In this document: one piece after another, positions 28,824 to 34,946 of the stretch
Layout: every line of letters starts with the position of its first letter
Position numbering within the stretch: the first letter of the stretch is position 1
Assembly (NCBI GenBank): GCA_965215125.1
Contig: OZ244052.1
Span: 1,696,001 to 1,760,000, forward strand
Direction of reading: 5' to 3'
From: an uncultured candidatus Porisulfidus sp.
Lineage (GTDB): Bacteria; Pseudomonadota; Gammaproteobacteria; Poriferisulfidales; Oxydemutatoraceae
DNA length: 64,000 nucleotides
The notes under the pieces: model-generated
Databases searched by the model: none
Seen by the model: the letters and a program-made list of their open reading frames with translations, nothing else
What the model was told of the DNA's origin: nothing
Made by a program: the position numbers and the translations under genes

Positions 28824-28912
28824 TGGTGCCCGGGGCCGGAGTCGAACCGGCACGAGCATCACTGCTCGAGGGATTTTAAGTCCCTTGCGTCTACCAATTT
28901 CGCCACCCGGGC
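28824..28912 (-). tRNA. tRNA-Leu(TAA)
   Basis: GCCCGGGTGGCGAAATTGGTAGACGC...GACT-TAA-AATC...GGTTCGACTCC...GGGCACCA, with long variable arm and encoded CCA. Confidence 0.95.
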
Positions 28913-28946
28913 ATGCAACCGTGGACTTCGGTGTTTTCGTTGACAA

Positions 28947-29017
28947 AGGCTAGTGCCGGAATCGAACCGGCGTAAACGGCTTTGCAGGCCGCTGCATGAC
29001 CATTCTGCCAACTAGCC
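28947..29017 (-). tRNA. tRNA-Cys(GCA), CCA not encoded
   Basis: GGCTAGTTGGCAGAATGG...GCGGCCT-GCA-AAGCCGT...GGTTCGATTCCGGCACTAGCCT. Confidence 0.93.
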
Positions 29018-29133
29018 GAAACTCTATCGGCAGACGCGGGTCTGCCTTTAATTTAATCGCATATTGTACTATGTATCGGGTATCGTACAATAATAAAAGG
29101 TTTGGGAACTATATAGTTAACTTGACAAAGAAA

Positions 29134-29149
29134 TGTTAAATTATATCAA
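29134..29149 (+). promoter_or_regulatory. Possible extended -10 promoter giving a leaderless tnpB mRNA
   Basis: TGT-TAAATT at 29134-29142 with the ATG starting 7 nt after the hexamer; no Shine-Dalgarno upstream. Confidence 0.3.
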
Positions 29150-30366
29150 TGCAAACCCATAGAACAATTAGATACCATTTATATCCGGCGACACAGAAAA
29201 AACACCGGCAATTATATGGCACAGCAGGCGCATGCCGCTATGTCTGGAATCACTTTGTAGCCAAGCTGAAGGACGAATACGAGTATTACGGCGAAAGCCG
29301 GTTTAAATTCTTCACCCTAGGCAAGCAATTTACGACATTAAGAAAGTATTGCGACCAGTGGTTGCAAGGTTATTCCGCTTATATCGTCAAATCGTCATTA
29401 CAACCGATAGAGATAGCATACAAAGGATTTTTCAAGGGCAACAACGGATTGCCGAAGTTTCAGGGGAAATATAGGCATAGCCCGTCATTCCCGATCAATT
29501 ATCAATCGGCAAAGATATCAGCTTCTCACTTGTATATACAGAAGCTAGGCTGGATGAAGTTTGCCGGTGGCGATAGGTATAAAGGTGAGAAGTTTGTATC
29601 CGGTCAAGTCAAGTATGAATGTGGTAAATGGTATGCATATATCATCTATGAAGTGGAAGTGCCAAGCAGGTCGCATCCAGCGGTAGCAGTAGGACTAGAT
29701 AGGAATTGTGGTCAGGTCGCATTGTCGGACGGAACGATGTATCACCTGCCCGACTTAAAGCGTAAGGAGGCAAGGCGTAGGCGTTATCAGCGAATGGTTG
29801 CTAGACAGGTGAAGGGGAGCAACAGGCGCAAACTAGCAAAACATAGGCTACGGAAAGCGTATCAAGCGGAGCGGTTTGCGAGGGCGAATTGGTGTCATCA
29901 AACCAGCCGGTTAATAGCAGACCAATACGACATTGTGTATATGGAAGGATTGAATACAGCCGGCATGACGAAGTCGGCGAAAGGGACGATAGACAACCCG
30001 GGTAAGAATGTGAGGGCAAAGTCAGGTTTGAACAGGGAGATACTAAAGAGTGGCTGGTATAAACTGGAGCAATGCTTAAGCTACAAGGCCTGTATAGAAA
30101 AGGTCAATCCGGCCTATACGAGTCAAACCTGTAATCAATGCGGAAGCGTAAATAAAGTAAACCGTAAGACCCGATCAATTTTCAAGTGTCGGCATTGCGG
30201 ACACGAGGACAATGCGGATGTAAATGCTGCATTAAACATTTTGGCGGCTGGGAGTGCTGCAACCGGATGTGGAGACGGCGACAGTGGCAACACAAGTCGG
30301 TCAATGAAGCGTCAAAAAGATAGGGTGGCAAGGCAGGCTAAAAAGTCTGTCAAGTTACCTATATAA
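29149..30366 (+). CDS. tnpB: RNA-guided endonuclease TnpB (IS605 OrfB-like)
   Basis: N-terminal RYHLYP...GACRYVWN helical domain; RuvC-I AVGLDRN, RuvC-II MEGLN...SAKGT..NPGKNV.AKSGLNR.IL, zinc finger TSQTCNQC...CRHCG, RuvC-III NADVNAALNI. Confidence 0.93.
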   Translation: MQTHRTIRYHLYPATQKKHRQLYGTAGACRYVWNHFVAKLKDEYEYYGESRFKFFTLGKQFTTLRKYCDQWLQGYSAYIVKSSLQPIEIAYKGFFKGNNGLPKFQGKYRHSPSFPINYQSAKISASHLYIQKLGWMKFAGGDRYKGEKFVSGQVKYECGKWYAYIIYEVEVPSRSHPAVAVGLDRNCGQVALSDGTMYHLPDLKRKEARRRRYQRMVARQVKGSNRRKLAKHRLRKAYQAERFARANWCHQTSRLIADQYDIVYMEGLNTAGMTKSAKGTIDNPGKNVRAKSGLNREILKSGWYKLEQCLSYKACIEKVNPAYTSQTCNQCGSVNKVNRKTRSIFKCRHCGHEDNADVNAALNILAAGSAATGCGDGDSGNTSRSMKRQKDRVARQAKKSVKLPI

Positions 30367-30464
30367 TTCCCAAAGTATATATAATGGATTGAAACTATTG
30401 ATGACCAGATTGTTAAATAGTAAAAATATTTTCCATTTCAGCGATTGTAGCCTGCAAAAAAAGA

Positions 30465-33400
30465 ATGGATATAGGTTTTAATAAATATTACTTTATATTA
30501 TATCTAGGGTTACTTATTGCTCTACCGATACTTGCACAGGATCTTTCTCCCGAGTTGATCTGTGCAGACGAACTTGATAACGACCCCGCTAACGACGATA
30601 TAGACGACGATGATGACGGTTTAATAGAACTGTGTTATTTAGAAGATGTCAATGCGATACGCGAAGATGTCTCAGGCACTAGCTTGAAGCGGGGAGCTTC
30701 AATACTTACCGCAGGTTGCCCTACCAACGGTTGCGTAGGTTATGAATTAGTAAGAGATTTGGATTTTGCGACCACCCGAAGTTATGTGAACGCGATAGCA
30801 AACAAAAAAGTATGGACGGTGCAGAACTTTGACGACACTGACGATTTTGGTTGGTTGCCCATAGGGGATGCAGACAATCCTTTTAATACCGTCTTTGAAG
30901 GCGGCGGCCATACGATTTTCGGTTTAGAAATGAATCGAGAAGTAGAATATAGCGGTTTATTCGGTGTAAGCAATGTGAATTCAATCATAAGAAATTTCGG
31001 CGTAGTCGGCAATTTTGAAATCAGCGGCTTATCAAGTTTCTATATAGCTTGTTTGGTTGGAGAGAATAGGGGGCAAATCTTGAACAGCCATGCAACCTGC
31101 CGTATTAAATCTTCGGACAGTGATTTTGGTAATCTAGGCGGCTTAGTCGGCACCAACCAAGGTCAAATCTCCAGTAGCTATGTTCTTGGGCTAAACCCAC
31201 CGGTTGATTGTTTTGAGGGTGATGGGGTTCATCTATGCTCATCGGGTGAAGTAGGCGGCCTAGTCGCTGATAACCGAGGTCAAATCTCCAATAGCTATGC
31301 TATTGCCGATATTAGGACAGATGGCTTTTTTGGTGGCGGCTTGGTTGCCTATAATAGCGGCACGATCACCGATAGTTATGCTATTGCCGATATAGCAACT
31401 GTGCTTGAGAATAAGTCCGGTTTGGGTGGTATAGCGGGTAGTAATGAGGGCACGATTGCCAATAGTTATGTAGCCGGTTCTTCATTAGCTCTTGTCGGGT
31501 TATTCAGCTCCGGGAATACCAGTGGTTATGCAAGTATAGATACTAGTGTGCTGCAAGTACCTACCGCACCCGATGCAACCGATCCCGATCGTTATACAAA
31601 TTGGAGCACCGACAACTGGGATTTCGGCGATACAATGAGTTATCCTGCACTTCGTTATATCGCCGGCGATGCCGGCAACGCTTGTGCCTTGCTACCGCAC
31701 CCGATGCAGCCACGCTGTGGGGCTTTGTTGCCCGGTCAGCCCGGCCGCAATCGCGGTTTGAACACCTTGTTTTTCGCAAGAAACGGTTTAGAGTGGGGTG
31801 TCACCGAGATACCCGTTGCCCCGCCTTTTTCCTCTTTGCTATACGATTACGGTGTGACCATTTTGTATAGTAATACGCTTCAACTCAGACCGTATGCCGC
31901 TATCGGTACTGCGACGATTTCAATTACCAAAGTAGGGGATACCGCAAACCGTAACTATTTTAGCAATAAGCGTAGCGGCGATTTGAGTGAGGAAATCTTG
32001 TTACCCGACGAGAATGTGCCTACGACCTTGACGGTAGTGGTCATCGATGCCGACCCTACGACTTATCATTTTGTTATACGCAGAACGGTTCCCGATGAAG
32101 CAATTACGCTCGATATTACCACCCCTGATTCCGGTTCCTCAGTGCATGAAGGAGATCCTATTACTGCGCAAGTCGGTGACGGTAATAGTTTCTATTACTA
32201 TGCTTTGTTCCAAGACGAAGTTGAGCTGATGCGAGGGGAAAGCACTGCGTCCGTTTTGAGTTTTCGCATCCCCGAAGATTTGGATTTTGAAGCCGATGCA
32301 ACGACACGGAAGATTGTGTATACCGTATCGGTCGATAACGGTTCTAACAAAGTAGATAAAAATATTGAATTGATAGTTGCTAAGCGCAATAACGGCGAGC
32401 CTCAGCTGGATTTGAATATAATAGGCAGTCAATTCGGCATAAACCCTATTGTGGATGATCCGGACGGTGTCGGCAGATTTACTTATCGATGGCAGAGACG
32501 AGACGAGGGTGATAGTGATTGGATAGATGTTTCCGATAACTATAGCTATACCGCACCGGTTGACGGTCCTAATACGATACGCTATCGCGTGATTATCAAC
32601 CATGTTGACGGTCAAGAATATAGTGAAACATATAGTATAGGTCCGTTTCCTTACCTCTCGGACGCGGACAATGACCCCGACGATGACCCCGACAAATTGA
32701 TAGATATTTATTATTTGGAAGATTTGAATGCAATACGCTATGGGTTGGACGGTAGCGATTATAGTGTCAATCACCCGAGTAATATCAACGTATATAGAAA
32801 TTTTACGGGTTGTTCGGATGGTTGCATCGGCTACGAGTTGTTGAGAGACTTAGATTTTAATACCACCCAAAGCTATATAGATGCAGCCACCGCGCGAGAC
32901 CAATGGACGGTTGATGATTTTAGCAATGCTTCGGATACCGGTTGGTTAGCTATAGGGTCGGTCGACAACCCGTTTGATAGTACCTTCGACGGCAACAATT
33001 ACAAGATTTCCAATTTACAAATAAATAGGGATACGGTGAACGATGCCGATATTGCGTTGTTTGCGGCAGTTTCGGGAAATGCGAGTATAAAGCATGTTGG
33101 TTTGTCGGATGTTGCGATTGAAGGTAGAGGCGATACGAGTAGCTTGGTTGCCGAGAATAAGGGTGCCGTCGTTAATAGCTACGCATACGGACGGGTTATC
33201 GGTGGGCAGGATAACTTGGGCGGATTAGTTGCGATTAACGACCGCGATACTTCTACGACCGCAACGATTGTGAATAGCTATGCGAATGTCATAGCGACAT
33301 CTGCCGATGTGCTATCGGCAGGTGGTTTGGTCGGCAGCAACAGGAGTGTGATTAGAAATAGCTATGCGGTGGCTAATGTGAACGGTCCTTGTAATGTAGG

Positions 33401-34946
33401 TGGCTTGGTCGGTGAAAATAAAAGCAAGGCAAACGGGAGAGGACAAATCATCAATAGTTATGCCGCAGGAGATGTAGGCAGTATGGGAAATTGTATCGTC
33501 GATAGTGTGCAACACAGATTGGGTGGTTTGACGGCATACAACGAGGGATTGATAAAAAATAGTTATGCGTACGGAAGTGTCTCGGGTTATGACGGCAGTG
33601 TCGTGGGCGGTTTGGTTGCCGCATCTATGGATGTAGACGGTGCACTTCCTGCCGAAGTGGAGTCTAGTTATTGGGACAGTAATGCGAGTGAGCGGACGCG
33701 TTCTGCGGGGGGCACCTCTAAGACTACCGTCCAGTTGCAAATGCCGACTGCCGCAACCGGTATCTATGCGGATTGGAATACTGCTGATTGGGATTTCGGT
33801 ACTTCGGTGCAGTATCCGATAGTAAAATACACCTCGGCGACCGACATTTTTGCCGAGCCGGTGTGCGCTACCGACGCCGATAACGCACTGCCACCGTGCG
33901 GCACTATCGTGCCTAATCAACGTATTGGTCTGCAAAGCCTGACTTTGTCGATAGAAAGTCGTAGTACTCCGTTGATGCCGCCGTTTAACCCTGCAATCAC
34001 TAGCTATAGAATAGCGGGCATTGTAAACGCGATCAACCATACCACGATAAGTGCGACGGCACTGGAAAGCACTAGTCGGATAAGAATAAAAAGTAGTAGT
34101 CTTGAGGACGACATAGAGACAAATGCGGTTGAGCCGACTAGCGATGTGATTCCACTGGAGGAAGGTGGCACGACGACGATTACGATCATCGTGACCACCG
34201 AAGACAGTGAAATCGAACGAGCATATACCGTTGCGATAGAACGCTTACCGAGTTCGGATGCCGGTTTGGCGGAATTGGAGATAGCGGGCGAGCGCGGCAA
34301 TATAAAATTAACCCCTGAATTTTCCACAACCGAAACCGAATATACCGGGGAGGTTCAAGGTGACGTAGAAGTTTGGATAAACACGACGGCGACGCATAGC
34401 AAAGCGACGATCCAAATCGCAAAGGTGGGAAGCCAACCTATCCCTTCGATGCGTGGTCAAGCACGCAAACGGATTGAATTAGATCGGGCAACGACGACAA
34501 CCGTTATGATAACGGTGACCGCCCAAGACCGAGTAAAAGACGAAATATATACCGTTAAGCTAAGGCGATTAAAGAGTTCCGACGCAAACTTGAGAAGTTT
34601 GGAGATCGTAGGAATCGATGGTAGAAAATTTGAGCTGACCCGCATATCGGCAATAAAATATAGTGCCGAGGTTAAAAGTGATCAGAGCATCAGCATACAT
34701 GCCGCTGCACACCCCAGAGCGATGATTGAAGTCATAAAAGATAGAAATTCGGTTGCCGGCAAAAAATTGATGCAAGGGAGAATAGAAAGCGATCCGATTG
34801 AATTAAATCAAGATACGACTACGACCATCGTAGTGCGGGTGATATCCGAAGCCGGAAATCGGCAAGACACCACCCTAGTCATATCACACATAATAGATGC
34901 CATCCGCATTCGCGTCAAAGTGTTTTTGGAAGGCATCCTGCAATAG
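30465..34946 (+). CDS. Large secreted GLUG-repeat / cadherin-like beta-sandwich surface protein
   Basis: Sec-type signal (YYFILYLGLLIALPILAQD); acidic DDDDDGLIELCYLED cap; two GLUG beta-helix modules ending W...WDFG...YP; several L..L.....L.P.F......Y beta-sandwich units. Ends IRIRVKVFLEGILQ. Confidence 0.82.
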   Translation: MDIGFNKYYFILYLGLLIALPILAQDLSPELICADELDNDPANDDIDDDDDGLIELCYLEDVNAIREDVSGTSLKRGASILTAGCPTNGCVGYELVRDLDFATTRSYVNAIANKKVWTVQNFDDTDDFGWLPIGDADNPFNTVFEGGGHTIFGLEMNREVEYSGLFGVSNVNSIIRNFGVVGNFEISGLSSFYIACLVGENRGQILNSHATCRIKSSDSDFGNLGGLVGTNQGQISSSYVLGLNPPVDCFEGDGVHLCSSGEVGGLVADNRGQISNSYAIADIRTDGFFGGGLVAYNSGTITDSYAIADIATVLENKSGLGGIAGSNEGTIANSYVAGSSLALVGLFSSGNTSGYASIDTSVLQVPTAPDATDPDRYTNWSTDNWDFGDTMSYPALRYIAGDAGNACALLPHPMQPRCGALLPGQPGRNRGLNTLFFARNGLEWGVTEIPVAPPFSSLLYDYGVTILYSNTLQLRPYAAIGTATISITKVGDTANRNYFSNKRSGDLSEEILLPDENVPTTLTVVVIDADPTTYHFVIRRTVPDEAITLDITTPDSGSSVHEGDPITAQVGDGNSFYYYALFQDEVELMRGESTASVLSFRIPEDLDFEADATTRKIVYTVSVDNGSNKVDKNIELIVAKRNNGEPQLDLNIIGSQFGINPIVDDPDGVGRFTYRWQRRDEGDSDWIDVSDNYSYTAPVDGPNTIRYRVIINHVDGQEYSETYSIGPFPYLSDADNDPDDDPDKLIDIYYLEDLNAIRYGLDGSDYSVNHPSNINVYRNFTGCSDGCIGYELLRDLDFNTTQSYIDAATARDQWTVDDFSNASDTGWLAIGSVDNPFDSTFDGNNYKISNLQINRDTVNDADIALFAAVSGNASIKHVGLSDVAIEGRGDTSSLVAENKGAVVNSYAYGRVIGGQDNLGGLVAINDRDTSTTATIVNSYANVIATSADVLSAGGLVGSNRSVIRNSYAVANVNGPCNVGGLVGENKSKANGRGQIINSYAAGDVGSMGNCIVDSVQHRLGGLTAYNEGLIKNSYAYGSVSGYDGSVVGGLVAASMDVDGALPAEVESSYWDSNASERTRSAGGTSKTTVQLQMPTAATGIYADWNTADWDFGTSVQYPIVKYTSATDIFAEPVCATDADNALPPCGTIVPNQRIGLQSLTLSIESRSTPLMPPFNPAITSYRIAGIVNAINHTTISATALESTSRIRIKSSSLEDDIETNAVEPTSDVIPLEEGGTTTITIIVTTEDSEIERAYTVAIERLPSSDAGLAELEIAGERGNIKLTPEFSTTETEYTGEVQGDVEVWINTTATHSKATIQIAKVGSQPIPSMRGQARKRIELDRATTTTVMITVTAQDRVKDEIYTVKLRRLKSSDANLRSLEIVGIDGRKFELTRISAIKYSAEVKSDQSISIHAAAHPRAMIEVIKDRNSVAGKKLMQGRIESDPIELNQDTTTTIVVRVISEAGNRQDTTLVISHIIDAIRIRVKVFLEGILQ

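What the first reader, a model, noticed from the sequence alone, without database searches (positions are those of the whole stretch)
29101..30374. TnpB nuclease enclosed by DDE-type terminal inverted repeats instead of IS200/IS605 ends
Seen: a full-length tnpB with all three RuvC acidic residues and the zinc finger is tightly bracketed by a 27-bp inverted repeat (TTTGGGAACTATATAGTTAACTTGACA vs the reverse complement of TGTCAAGTTACCTATATAATTCCCAAA, 2 mismatches). The tnpB stop codon lies inside the right repeat. No tnpA is present, and no IS605-style subterminal hairpin is apparent at the ends. Established: IS200/IS605 (HUH Y1) and IS607 (serine recombinase) elements, the usual TnpB hosts, lack TIRs. 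From memory, the ISNwi1 group of the IS1595 family has TIRs starting 'ggnnatTAT' and often carries passenger genes; GGGAATTAT here fits that pattern, but this needs checking. Inference: TnpB has been captured by a non-autonomous IS1595-like element mobilised in trans by a DDE transposase, a pairing of RNA-guided nuclease and transposon chemistry that I do not recognise as characterised.
Basis: partly seen in the sequence, partly recalled or inferred. Interest (0 to 1): 0.85.

Follow-up and report, generated by a model that had tools for sequence, protein, structure and literature searches.

The report
TnpB fitted to IS1595 transposon ends
A small jumping element carries only an RNA-guided nuclease gene (tnpB) between the ends of an IS1595-type transposon, and its guide RNA and target motif appear rebuilt to fit those ends; the arrangement is known in outline, but this family shows how the fit may work.

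Summary
The genome holds 7 such tnpB copies and 2 IS1595 transposase elements with related ends. Relatives in 19 of 53 genomes of the order share the design. None of 111 loci has a transposase inside, and near-identical ends (22-23/24) sit on IS1595 elements of sister genomes. TnpB is intact and under purifying selection. The predicted omegaRNA is rebuilt around the right TIR: the TIR tip closes the pseudoknot and its body forms a hairpin arm. A purine lies just 5' of the left TSD in 47/48 copies (IS1595 controls 14/36; held-out set 8/8). The TnpB residue matching ISDra2's TAM -1 contact covaries with TSD base 1, so the TAM probably ends inside the TSD (TAA here); held-out support for this was mixed. 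Likely role: cutting the emptied site so the element is retained. TIR-flanked and solo TnpBs are in print (Altae-Tran 2023; its DDE-5 has a TA 8 bp upstream). This scan reported the same kind before on other genomes and on other copies here. No RNA or bench data.

The parts
29094..29096 (+). Predicted TAM (TAA): two flank bases plus the first base of the left TSD
   Evidence: Purine at -9 in 47/48 elements. TA|A in this clade. Residue covariation. Inferred, not assayed.
29096..29103 (+). Left copy of the 8-bp target duplication (worn, 5/8 match to the right copy)
   Evidence: family TSD 8/8 in 34 of 70 and 7/8 in 14 of 70
29104..30371 (+). Whole non-autonomous element, 1268 bp
   Evidence: Boundaries shared by 7 copies in the genome
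29104..29127 (+). Left TIR, 24 bp, IS1595 type
   Evidence: 22-23/24 identical to the ends of IS1595 elements L148 and L152
29149..30366 (+). tnpB, 405 aa, intact D-E-D triad and zinc finger; starts 45 bp inside the left end; stop codon inside the right TIR
   Evidence: best fold match ISDra2 TnpB 8h1j; dN/dS below 0.4
30244..30260 (+). Predicted omegaRNA stem 1 with the pseudoknot loop at 30250-30255
   Evidence: Stem 96.2% paired, 2 pairs with two-sided changes, over 47 sequences
30323..30360 (+). Predicted omegaRNA terminal hairpin whose 3' arm is the right TIR (sits where IS605 has its TnpA hairpin)
   Evidence: z below -2 in 50 of 69 right ends against 2/11, 4/12 and 5/65 in controls
30348..30371 (-). 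Right TIR, 24 bp; its last 6 bases (30366-30371) close the predicted pseudoknot
   Evidence: pseudoknot 97.9% paired
30372..30379 (+). Right copy of the target duplication; base 1 predicted to be the unpaired last scaffold base
   Evidence: register inferred
30373..30388 (+). Predicted guide (TSD bases 2-8 plus right flank)
   Evidence: Inference from the ISDra2 architecture; no TAM-plus-12-nt target elsewhere in the genome

Best explanation
This is a transposase-less IS1595-type element whose only cargo is a working TnpB-omegaRNA. An IS1595 DDE transposase encoded elsewhere recognises the 24-bp TIRs and inserts it with an 8-bp duplication (anatomy shown; mobilisation in trans inferred). A transcript running through the tnpB 3' end, the right TIR and the flank folds into an omegaRNA in which the TIR replaces the IS605 right end. 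Its guide is the right TSD plus flank (structure supported by covariation; expression not shown). The empty allele reads TAM, TSD, flank, so TnpB cuts it, whether it arose by loss of the element or is an unoccupied sister or incoming copy. Repair from a filled copy keeps or spreads the element (inferred from IS605 work). The filled site is spared: the left junction offers the TAM but at most 7 matching bases, and the right junction offers the full match but no TAM. Because the transposase has no motif preference, only copies that land next to a TAM are defended, which would give the one-sided flank motif. The TAM is short and clade-specific and probably includes TSD base 1 (TAA in this clade).
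For: Seven copies and two IS1595 elements in the genome; no Y1. Empty sites with one TSD copy for L001, L011, L019, L020, L009 and L005. Cognate TIRs on IS1595 L148/L152. Catalytic D 80/80, E 80/80, D 78/80 among ORFs of at least 330 aa, 3 of them outgroups. dN/dS 0.06-0.39 in 20 of 21 pairs, 1 undefined. Pseudoknot 97.9% paired with an A-U (33) to C-G (7) switch; slid controls 40-64%. Purine at -9 in 47/48 against 21/48 on the mirror side (p 1.7e-9) and 14/36 in IS1595 controls (p 7e-10); held-out 8/8. In an unbiased scan of 360 columns, residue 58 and then 78 best predict TSD base 1; they align to ISDra2 S56 and F77, which contact TAM -1 and the partner of TAM -2. Cys58 goes with C at TSD base 1 in 9/10 against 4/30 for Gly58. 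No self-target for 7 of 7 guides. Retention by TnpB is shown for IS605 in PMC10055086.
Against: No RNA or cleavage data. The only IS1595 transposases in this genome have ends just 17-19/24 identical, so the actual mobiliser is unproven. This copy's TSD differs at 3 of 8 bases, so it may no longer defend its own site, and no empty allele of it was found. Held-out residue predictions were mixed: Cys58 gave C in 1 of 2 (L333 had G, which breaks the 0/48 'never G' rule), and Tyr78 gave the full AA in 0 of 2 well-defined sites (4 of 6 including worn TSDs). For position -9 the top-scoring columns were not the TAM residues, so phylogeny confounds the scan. The pseudoknot loop also encodes protein and the TIR tip is fixed by the transposase; the two-sided change comes from one deep clade. 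A 47:1 bias is steep for a pure retention filter. How IS1595 excises is not established by anything I read.
Confidence: 0.65

Rival explanations
1. TnpB shapes where the element inserts, or locks it in place, by binding rather than cutting. TnpB-omegaRNA on TAM-bearing DNA biases the borrowed transposase, or it binds TAM plus the 7-base TSD match at its own left end and shields that TIR from excision.
For: The motif is nearly absolute (47/48 and 8/8) even in copies with perfect TSDs, while autonomous elements with the same TIR type lack it. The TSD builds a TAM-plus-7-nt site next to the left TIR in copies D and F. TnpB binds TAM sites with weak seed dependence (PMC10055086).
Against: The nuclease triad is invariant. 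tnpB copies look older than autonomous ones (perfect TSD 34/70 against 18/22), as a retention filter predicts. The left-junction match has decayed to 0-5 bases in 5 of 7 own copies. There is no evidence of TnpB-transposase contact.
Confidence: 0.2
2. The flank motif is an asymmetric target preference of the transposase, and TnpB is kept for another reason, such as damping transposition or attacking other mobile DNA.
For: The control is small: 18 elements, 8 of them one element in G007. Own-genome element X also has TA. L022, with a TTGACA-type TIR, has TA|A although its TnpB sits in an NG clade.
Against: Autonomous elements with the closest TIR types show no purine bias. The motif follows the TnpB clade and TAM-contact residues: L008 and L152 share a TIR type, yet the motif tracks the protein.
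Confidence: 0.1
3. An ordinary IS605/IS1341 element that landed inside a pre-existing IS1595 MITE, with its guide lying inside the MITE.
For: The scaffold contains a TCAA motif 41-57 bases before the end that resembles an IS605 terminus. IS1595-derived MITEs exist (L349).
Against: That motif is the 3' arm of an internal scaffold stem; IS605 outgroups continue past the equivalent stem to a hairpin and their own end. The following bases pair with the TIR and have no convincing target in the genome. The TIR architecture holds down to 37% protein identity.
Confidence: 0.03

Closest known systems
DDE-associated TnpB branches DDE-1 to DDE-6 and solo TnpBs with the same ends (Altae-Tran et al. 2023, PMC10691335; I saw passages, sections 8 and 9, and searches of the supplementary PDF text; Fig. 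4 and Additional files 7, 10, 11 not seen)
   Same: Inverted terminal repeats around tnpB, the tnpB 3' end near the element end, and solo copies mobilised in trans. The legend of Additional file 11 says DDE-5 has a TA motif 8 bp upstream of the end, the same position as here.
   Different: Those branches were defined by a DDE gene within 1 kb, whereas here none lies inside in 111 loci. The text names IS630, and the review names ISL2, IS630 and IS1031, not IS1595. DDE-5 is listed with rearranged-site, plasmid-borne branches, while this family has a canonical triad and no plasmid hit above 36%. Whether it is DDE-5 could not be settled.
IS605/IS1341 TnpB (ISDra2, PMC10097598, passages seen; ISGst, PMC10055086, passages seen)
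   Same: Protein fold, omegaRNA overlapping the 3' end of the gene, a pseudoknot closed by the element tip, a guide taken from the right flank, and a TAM on the left.
   Different: No Y1 transposase, TIRs and an 8-bp TSD instead of hairpin ends, and a TAM not shared with the transposase.
IS1595 family and its transporter IS (PF12762; PMC12561309 and TnCentral preprint 10.1101/2021.05.26.445724, passages seen)
   Same: TIRs, AT-rich 8-bp duplications, passenger genes.
   Different: No transposase in cis, and the passenger's RNA is built from the TIR itself.
Fanzor1 in eukaryotic DDE transposons (review PMC13565253, section 6.2 read)
   Same: The 5' TSD forms part of the TAM and the 3' TSD part of the scaffold.
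   Different: Bacterial canonical TnpB that keeps its pseudoknot; the TSD is 8 bp and variable, so most of it would be guide.

Membership tests
TnpB (IS200/IS605-type RNA-guided nuclease) | HTH, RuvC with D-E-D, zinc finger, TnpB fold | tested here: met
TnpB (IS200/IS605-type RNA-guided nuclease) | omegaRNA scaffold with pseudoknot at the right end | tested here: met
   By covariation and folding only; Rfam has no match
TnpB (IS200/IS605-type RNA-guided nuclease) | Expressed omegaRNA and RNA-guided, TAM-dependent cleavage | not testable with these tools
   Needs RNA sequencing and a cleavage assay
IS200/IS605/IS1341 element | Y1 transposase in cis or trans, no TIR, no TSD | tested here: not met
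   No Y1 in the genome or in 111 loci with one query; TIR and TSD present
IS607 element | Serine recombinase, no TIR or TSD | tested here: not met
   TIR and TSD present and no room for a second gene; serine recombinase elsewhere in the genome was not searched
IS1595 family (non-autonomous) | TIRs shared with IS1595 transposase elements | tested here: met
   22-23/24 with L148 and L152; 17-19/24 with X and Y
IS1595 family (non-autonomous) | 8-bp target duplication confirmed by empty sites | tested here: met
   (family); worn at this copy
IS1595 family (non-autonomous) | Mobilisation by an IS1595 transposase | not testable with these tools
   Inferred from shared ends
IS1595 subgroup ISNwi1 | Subgroup catalytic spacing and TIR consensus | not tested
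DDE-5 branch of Altae-Tran 2023 | TA motif 8 bp upstream of the end | tested here: met
   TA in this clade; other clades have NG
DDE-5 branch of Altae-Tran 2023 | DDE transposase gene within 1 kb of tnpB | tested here: not met
   0 of 111 inside the ends; 3 of 111 have an IS1595 hit outside the ends (only IS1595 and Y1 queries used)
DDE-5 branch of Altae-Tran 2023 | Sequence placement in the branch | not testable with these tools
   Their alignments and loci files are not held

The most novel reading that the evidence does not exclude
TnpB-omegaRNA does more than defend emptied sites: it helps decide where a borrowed IS1595 transposase inserts the element, or locks TAM-adjacent copies in place through the TAM-plus-TSD site at the left end. 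This would be a natural two-part system in which a nuclease-active TnpB steers a DDE transposase in trans, with a 2-3 base TAM retuned by single residues.
Probability: 0.18. Interest if true: 0.85.

Novelty: new variant of a known kind. Interest (0 to 1): 0.6.

Why it matters
A 2026 review (PMC13565253) says prokaryotic TnpB with DDE transposases is rare, of unclear benefit, and perhaps limited by inflexible target recognition. This family offers a test case: many independent insertions, a transposase with no motif preference, and a one-sided motif that follows the nuclease's TAM residues. It shows how a guide RNA can be re-fitted to a new transposon end, a bacterial parallel to Fanzor1. It also predicts compact nucleases with very short TAMs and a natural map from residue to TAM.

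Tried and rejected
Internal fixed guide after the TCAA motif: no convincing genomic target, and the bases pair with the TIR; rejected. Autonomous version with the transposase inside: none in 111 loci. L197 is an unrelated IS1595 with its own TIRs beside a distant tnpB, and long homologues such as P0139 and P0244 carry no transposase domain. Empty allele of this copy: the orthologous region in G001 diverges at about window 29076, and no joint across the element was listed in 4 runs of contigs. Expression: no RNA holder listed, which is not evidence either way. Promoter scan: 0 sigma-70 sites. Rfam: only the tRNAs. Close relatives in plasmids and phages: best about 36%; viral contigs gave only distant TnpBs. 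Literature: TnpB + IS1595 gave 9 papers, none about this by title or abstract start (listing only, except the TnCentral passages); TnpB + ISXO2 gave 0; some searches gave only the works cited. Most subscription papers and the PNAS additional files are outside these searches. No complex prediction was run, and no formal one-clade test was run.

Full report
OBSERVATION. The ORF at 29149-30366 (405 aa) carries HTH_OrfB_IS605, OrfB_IS605 and Cas12f1-like_TNB. Its model (pLDDT 77.8) matches ISDra2 TnpB best (8h1j, E 4.5e-21). The inverted repeat is real. Scanning the 2.22-Mb genome gave seven tnpB-derived elements between such repeats: five with full ORFs (A, C, D, E and this one, W) and two internally deleted (B, F). 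All end at the same GGG...CCC, so the element is 29104-30371 with 24-bp TIRs. TSD matches were 8/8 for D and F, 7/8 for B, C and E, 5/8 for W and 4/8 for A.

TRANSPOSASE. The same scan found two 1294-bp elements (X, Y) encoding a 308-aa PF12762 IS1595 transposase. They are the only PF12762 matches in the genome, and no Y1 transposase matched (completeness 99%). Their TIRs match W at 17-19 of 24. IS1595 elements of same-genus genomes match better: L148 (306-aa ORF) and L152 (275-aa ORF) at 22-23 of 24. The best-fitting mobiliser is therefore not in this genome, and cross-mobilisation by X/Y or a lost cognate copy is inferred.

FAMILY. One search gave 31 loci in records titled Ca. Oxydemutatoraceae, Ca. 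Porisulfidus and other gammaproteobacterial MAGs (that these are sponge symbionts is my recall). Of the 31, 25 had a TIR pair with at most 6 mismatches in 24, 5 had poorer pairs, and 1 was cut by a contig end. A 29-sequence profile hit 19 of 53 genomes of the order and 3 of 400 in a class-wide sample, two of them from this family (only 4 candidates scored per genome). Among the 160 metagenome and viral loci, only the four top scorers (477-609 bits) were TIR type. None of the other listed loci (at most 318 bits) had a repeat with a TSD of 7 or more, and many lay beside a Y1 gene. In a midpoint-rooted FastTree every member with known context in the 122-leaf clade holding W is TIR type (support 0.70; about half the leaves are proteins without context). 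No IS1595 or Y1 gene lies inside the ends in 111 loci; 3 have an IS1595 hit outside the ends. Empty orthologous sites in this genome hold one copy of the TSD for L001, L011, L019, L020, L009 and L005; L003 shows no duplication. Copy D is shared at the same site with L002 at 99.4% identity.

SELECTION. Among 80 ORFs of at least 330 aa (3 of them IS605 outgroups), the RuvC D, E and D were present in 80, 80 and 78. dN/dS over codons 1-355 was 0.06-0.39 in 20 of 21 pairs, with 1 undefined.

OMEGARNA. I aligned W and 46 of the 73 locus right ends listed, leaving out near-duplicates, outgroups and mis-called ends. Stem 1 is 96.2% paired with two two-sided changes. A loop (30250-30255) pairs with the last six bases of the element in 97.9% of cells, one pair switching from A-U (33) to C-G (7). 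No shuffle of 500 reached the paired fraction, and slid partners gave 40-64%. The C-G change comes from one deep clade, the loop also encodes protein, and the tip is fixed by the transposase, so this is good but not conclusive evidence. The stretch before the tip folds into a hairpin whose 3' arm is the TIR: z below -2 in 50 of 69 right ends (antisense 33 of 69; several segments were clipped by my motif finder), against 2/11 and 4/12 for IS1595 ends and 5/65 for tnpB left ends. The 5' arm changes with the TIR type, for example in L022, L031 and L079. The IS605 outgroups L032-L034 have an ordinary hairpin and terminus at this place.

FLANK MOTIF. Of 81 tnpB elements with both ends called, 11 duplicates and 22 with a TSD of 6/8 or less were dropped; 17 further loci had no left end called (16, plus L021). 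In the remaining 48, the base just 5' of the left TSD is a purine in 47, against 21 of 48 at the mirror position (p 1.7e-9) and 14 of 36 sides of 18 IS1595 controls (p 7e-10). The controls are those with GGGAATTAT-type ends and a perfect TSD among 50 fetched loci plus X and Y, and 8 are one element. TSD base 1 was never G in the 48. The motif follows the TnpB tree: TA|A or NA|A in W's clade, RG|C in L007/L009/L019/L020, mostly NG elsewhere. In a held-out set of 24 loci, 8 new sites had a TSD of 7 or more and all 8 had the purine.

REGISTER. In ISDra2 the pseudoknot spans -2 to -6 and -1 is not listed as paired; S56 and Y52 contact TAM -1, and F77 contacts the partner of TAM -2 (PMC10097598). 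Here the helix runs to the element's last base, and the C-G switch fixes that register, so TSD base 1 should be the spare scaffold base on the right and the last TAM base on the left (inference). Consistent with this, residue 58 and then 78 had the highest mutual information with TSD base 1 among 360 columns in 48 proteins with TSD of 6 or more, and they align to S56 and F77. Cys58 went with C in 9 of 10 against 4 of 30 for Gly58; Tyr78 went with AA in 11 of 12 against 4 of 36. Cys58 occurs in two separate clades. Against: for position -9 the top columns were not TAM residues. In the held-out set Cys58 gave C once and G once, and Tyr78 gave AA in 0 of 2 clean sites and 4 of 6 overall. Kin share residues, so these p-values overstate.

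MECHANISM. Shown: anatomy, independent insertions, selection, RNA pairing and flank bias. Inferred: mobilisation in trans, expression, cleavage of the TAM-TSD-flank empty allele, and retention by repair as shown for IS605 (PMC10055086). None of the 7 own guides has a TAM-plus-12-nt target in the genome; left junctions match at most 7 bases and right junctions lack the TAM. The open puzzle is how near-absolute the bias is, which leaves room for TnpB acting at insertion. W's own TSD has decayed at 3 of 8 positions, so W may be undefended.

PRIOR WORK. Altae-Tran 2023 (PMC10691335) reports six DDE-associated branches with inverted repeats and solo TnpBs mobilised in trans. It lists IS1595 only among search HMMs in the text I saw, and notes a TA 8 bp upstream for DDE-5. 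Its figure and additional files, which I could not see, may show this family or the IS1595 link. The review PMC13565253 names ISL2, IS630 and IS1031. Searches found no paper on IS1595-type TnpB elements in the held library. This scan had already reported the kind on at least eight other stretches in other genomes and on copies A, D and F here.

VERDICT. A real element and a new variant of a known kind. The added value is the RNA-TIR co-adaptation and a testable TAM register. Interest 0.6.

Noticed in passing
L345 101-324, L346 101-326, L348 101-298, L347 101-240: MITEs of 140-226 bp with the same TIRs that keep a whole or partial omegaRNA but no tnpB; L345 and L346 are two copies of one MITE. 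They could supply guides in trans.
   Followed up: partly
G000:C1:965778-967676 (copy B): A deleted tnpB copy with a second IS, IS3-like by eye, inserted just upstream of the tnpB start; a similar deletion joint was seen in three runs.
   Followed up: no
L022 2465-3723: Its TnpB groups with L023/L013/L014, but its TIR is of the X/Y type and the inner hairpin arm has changed to match, suggesting end swapping between IS1595 subfamilies.
   Followed up: partly
L003 2456-3714: Insertion directly before the start codon of a conserved gene with no target duplication, compared with the empty site in G000.
   Followed up: partly
window 28824-29017 and 30465-34946: The element sits between a tRNA-Cys/tRNA-Leu pair and a 1493-aa GLUG/cadherin-like repeat protein of a multi-copy family; the relative G001 has a different gene after the tRNAs.
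   Followed up: partly
G000:C1:1902907-1902987: An isolated remnant of the tnpB 3' end and omegaRNA without TIR.
   Followed up: no
L154-L156: A second, 753-bp IS1595-family group with different TIRs and 8-bp TSDs; no tnpB was seen with these ends.
   Followed up: no
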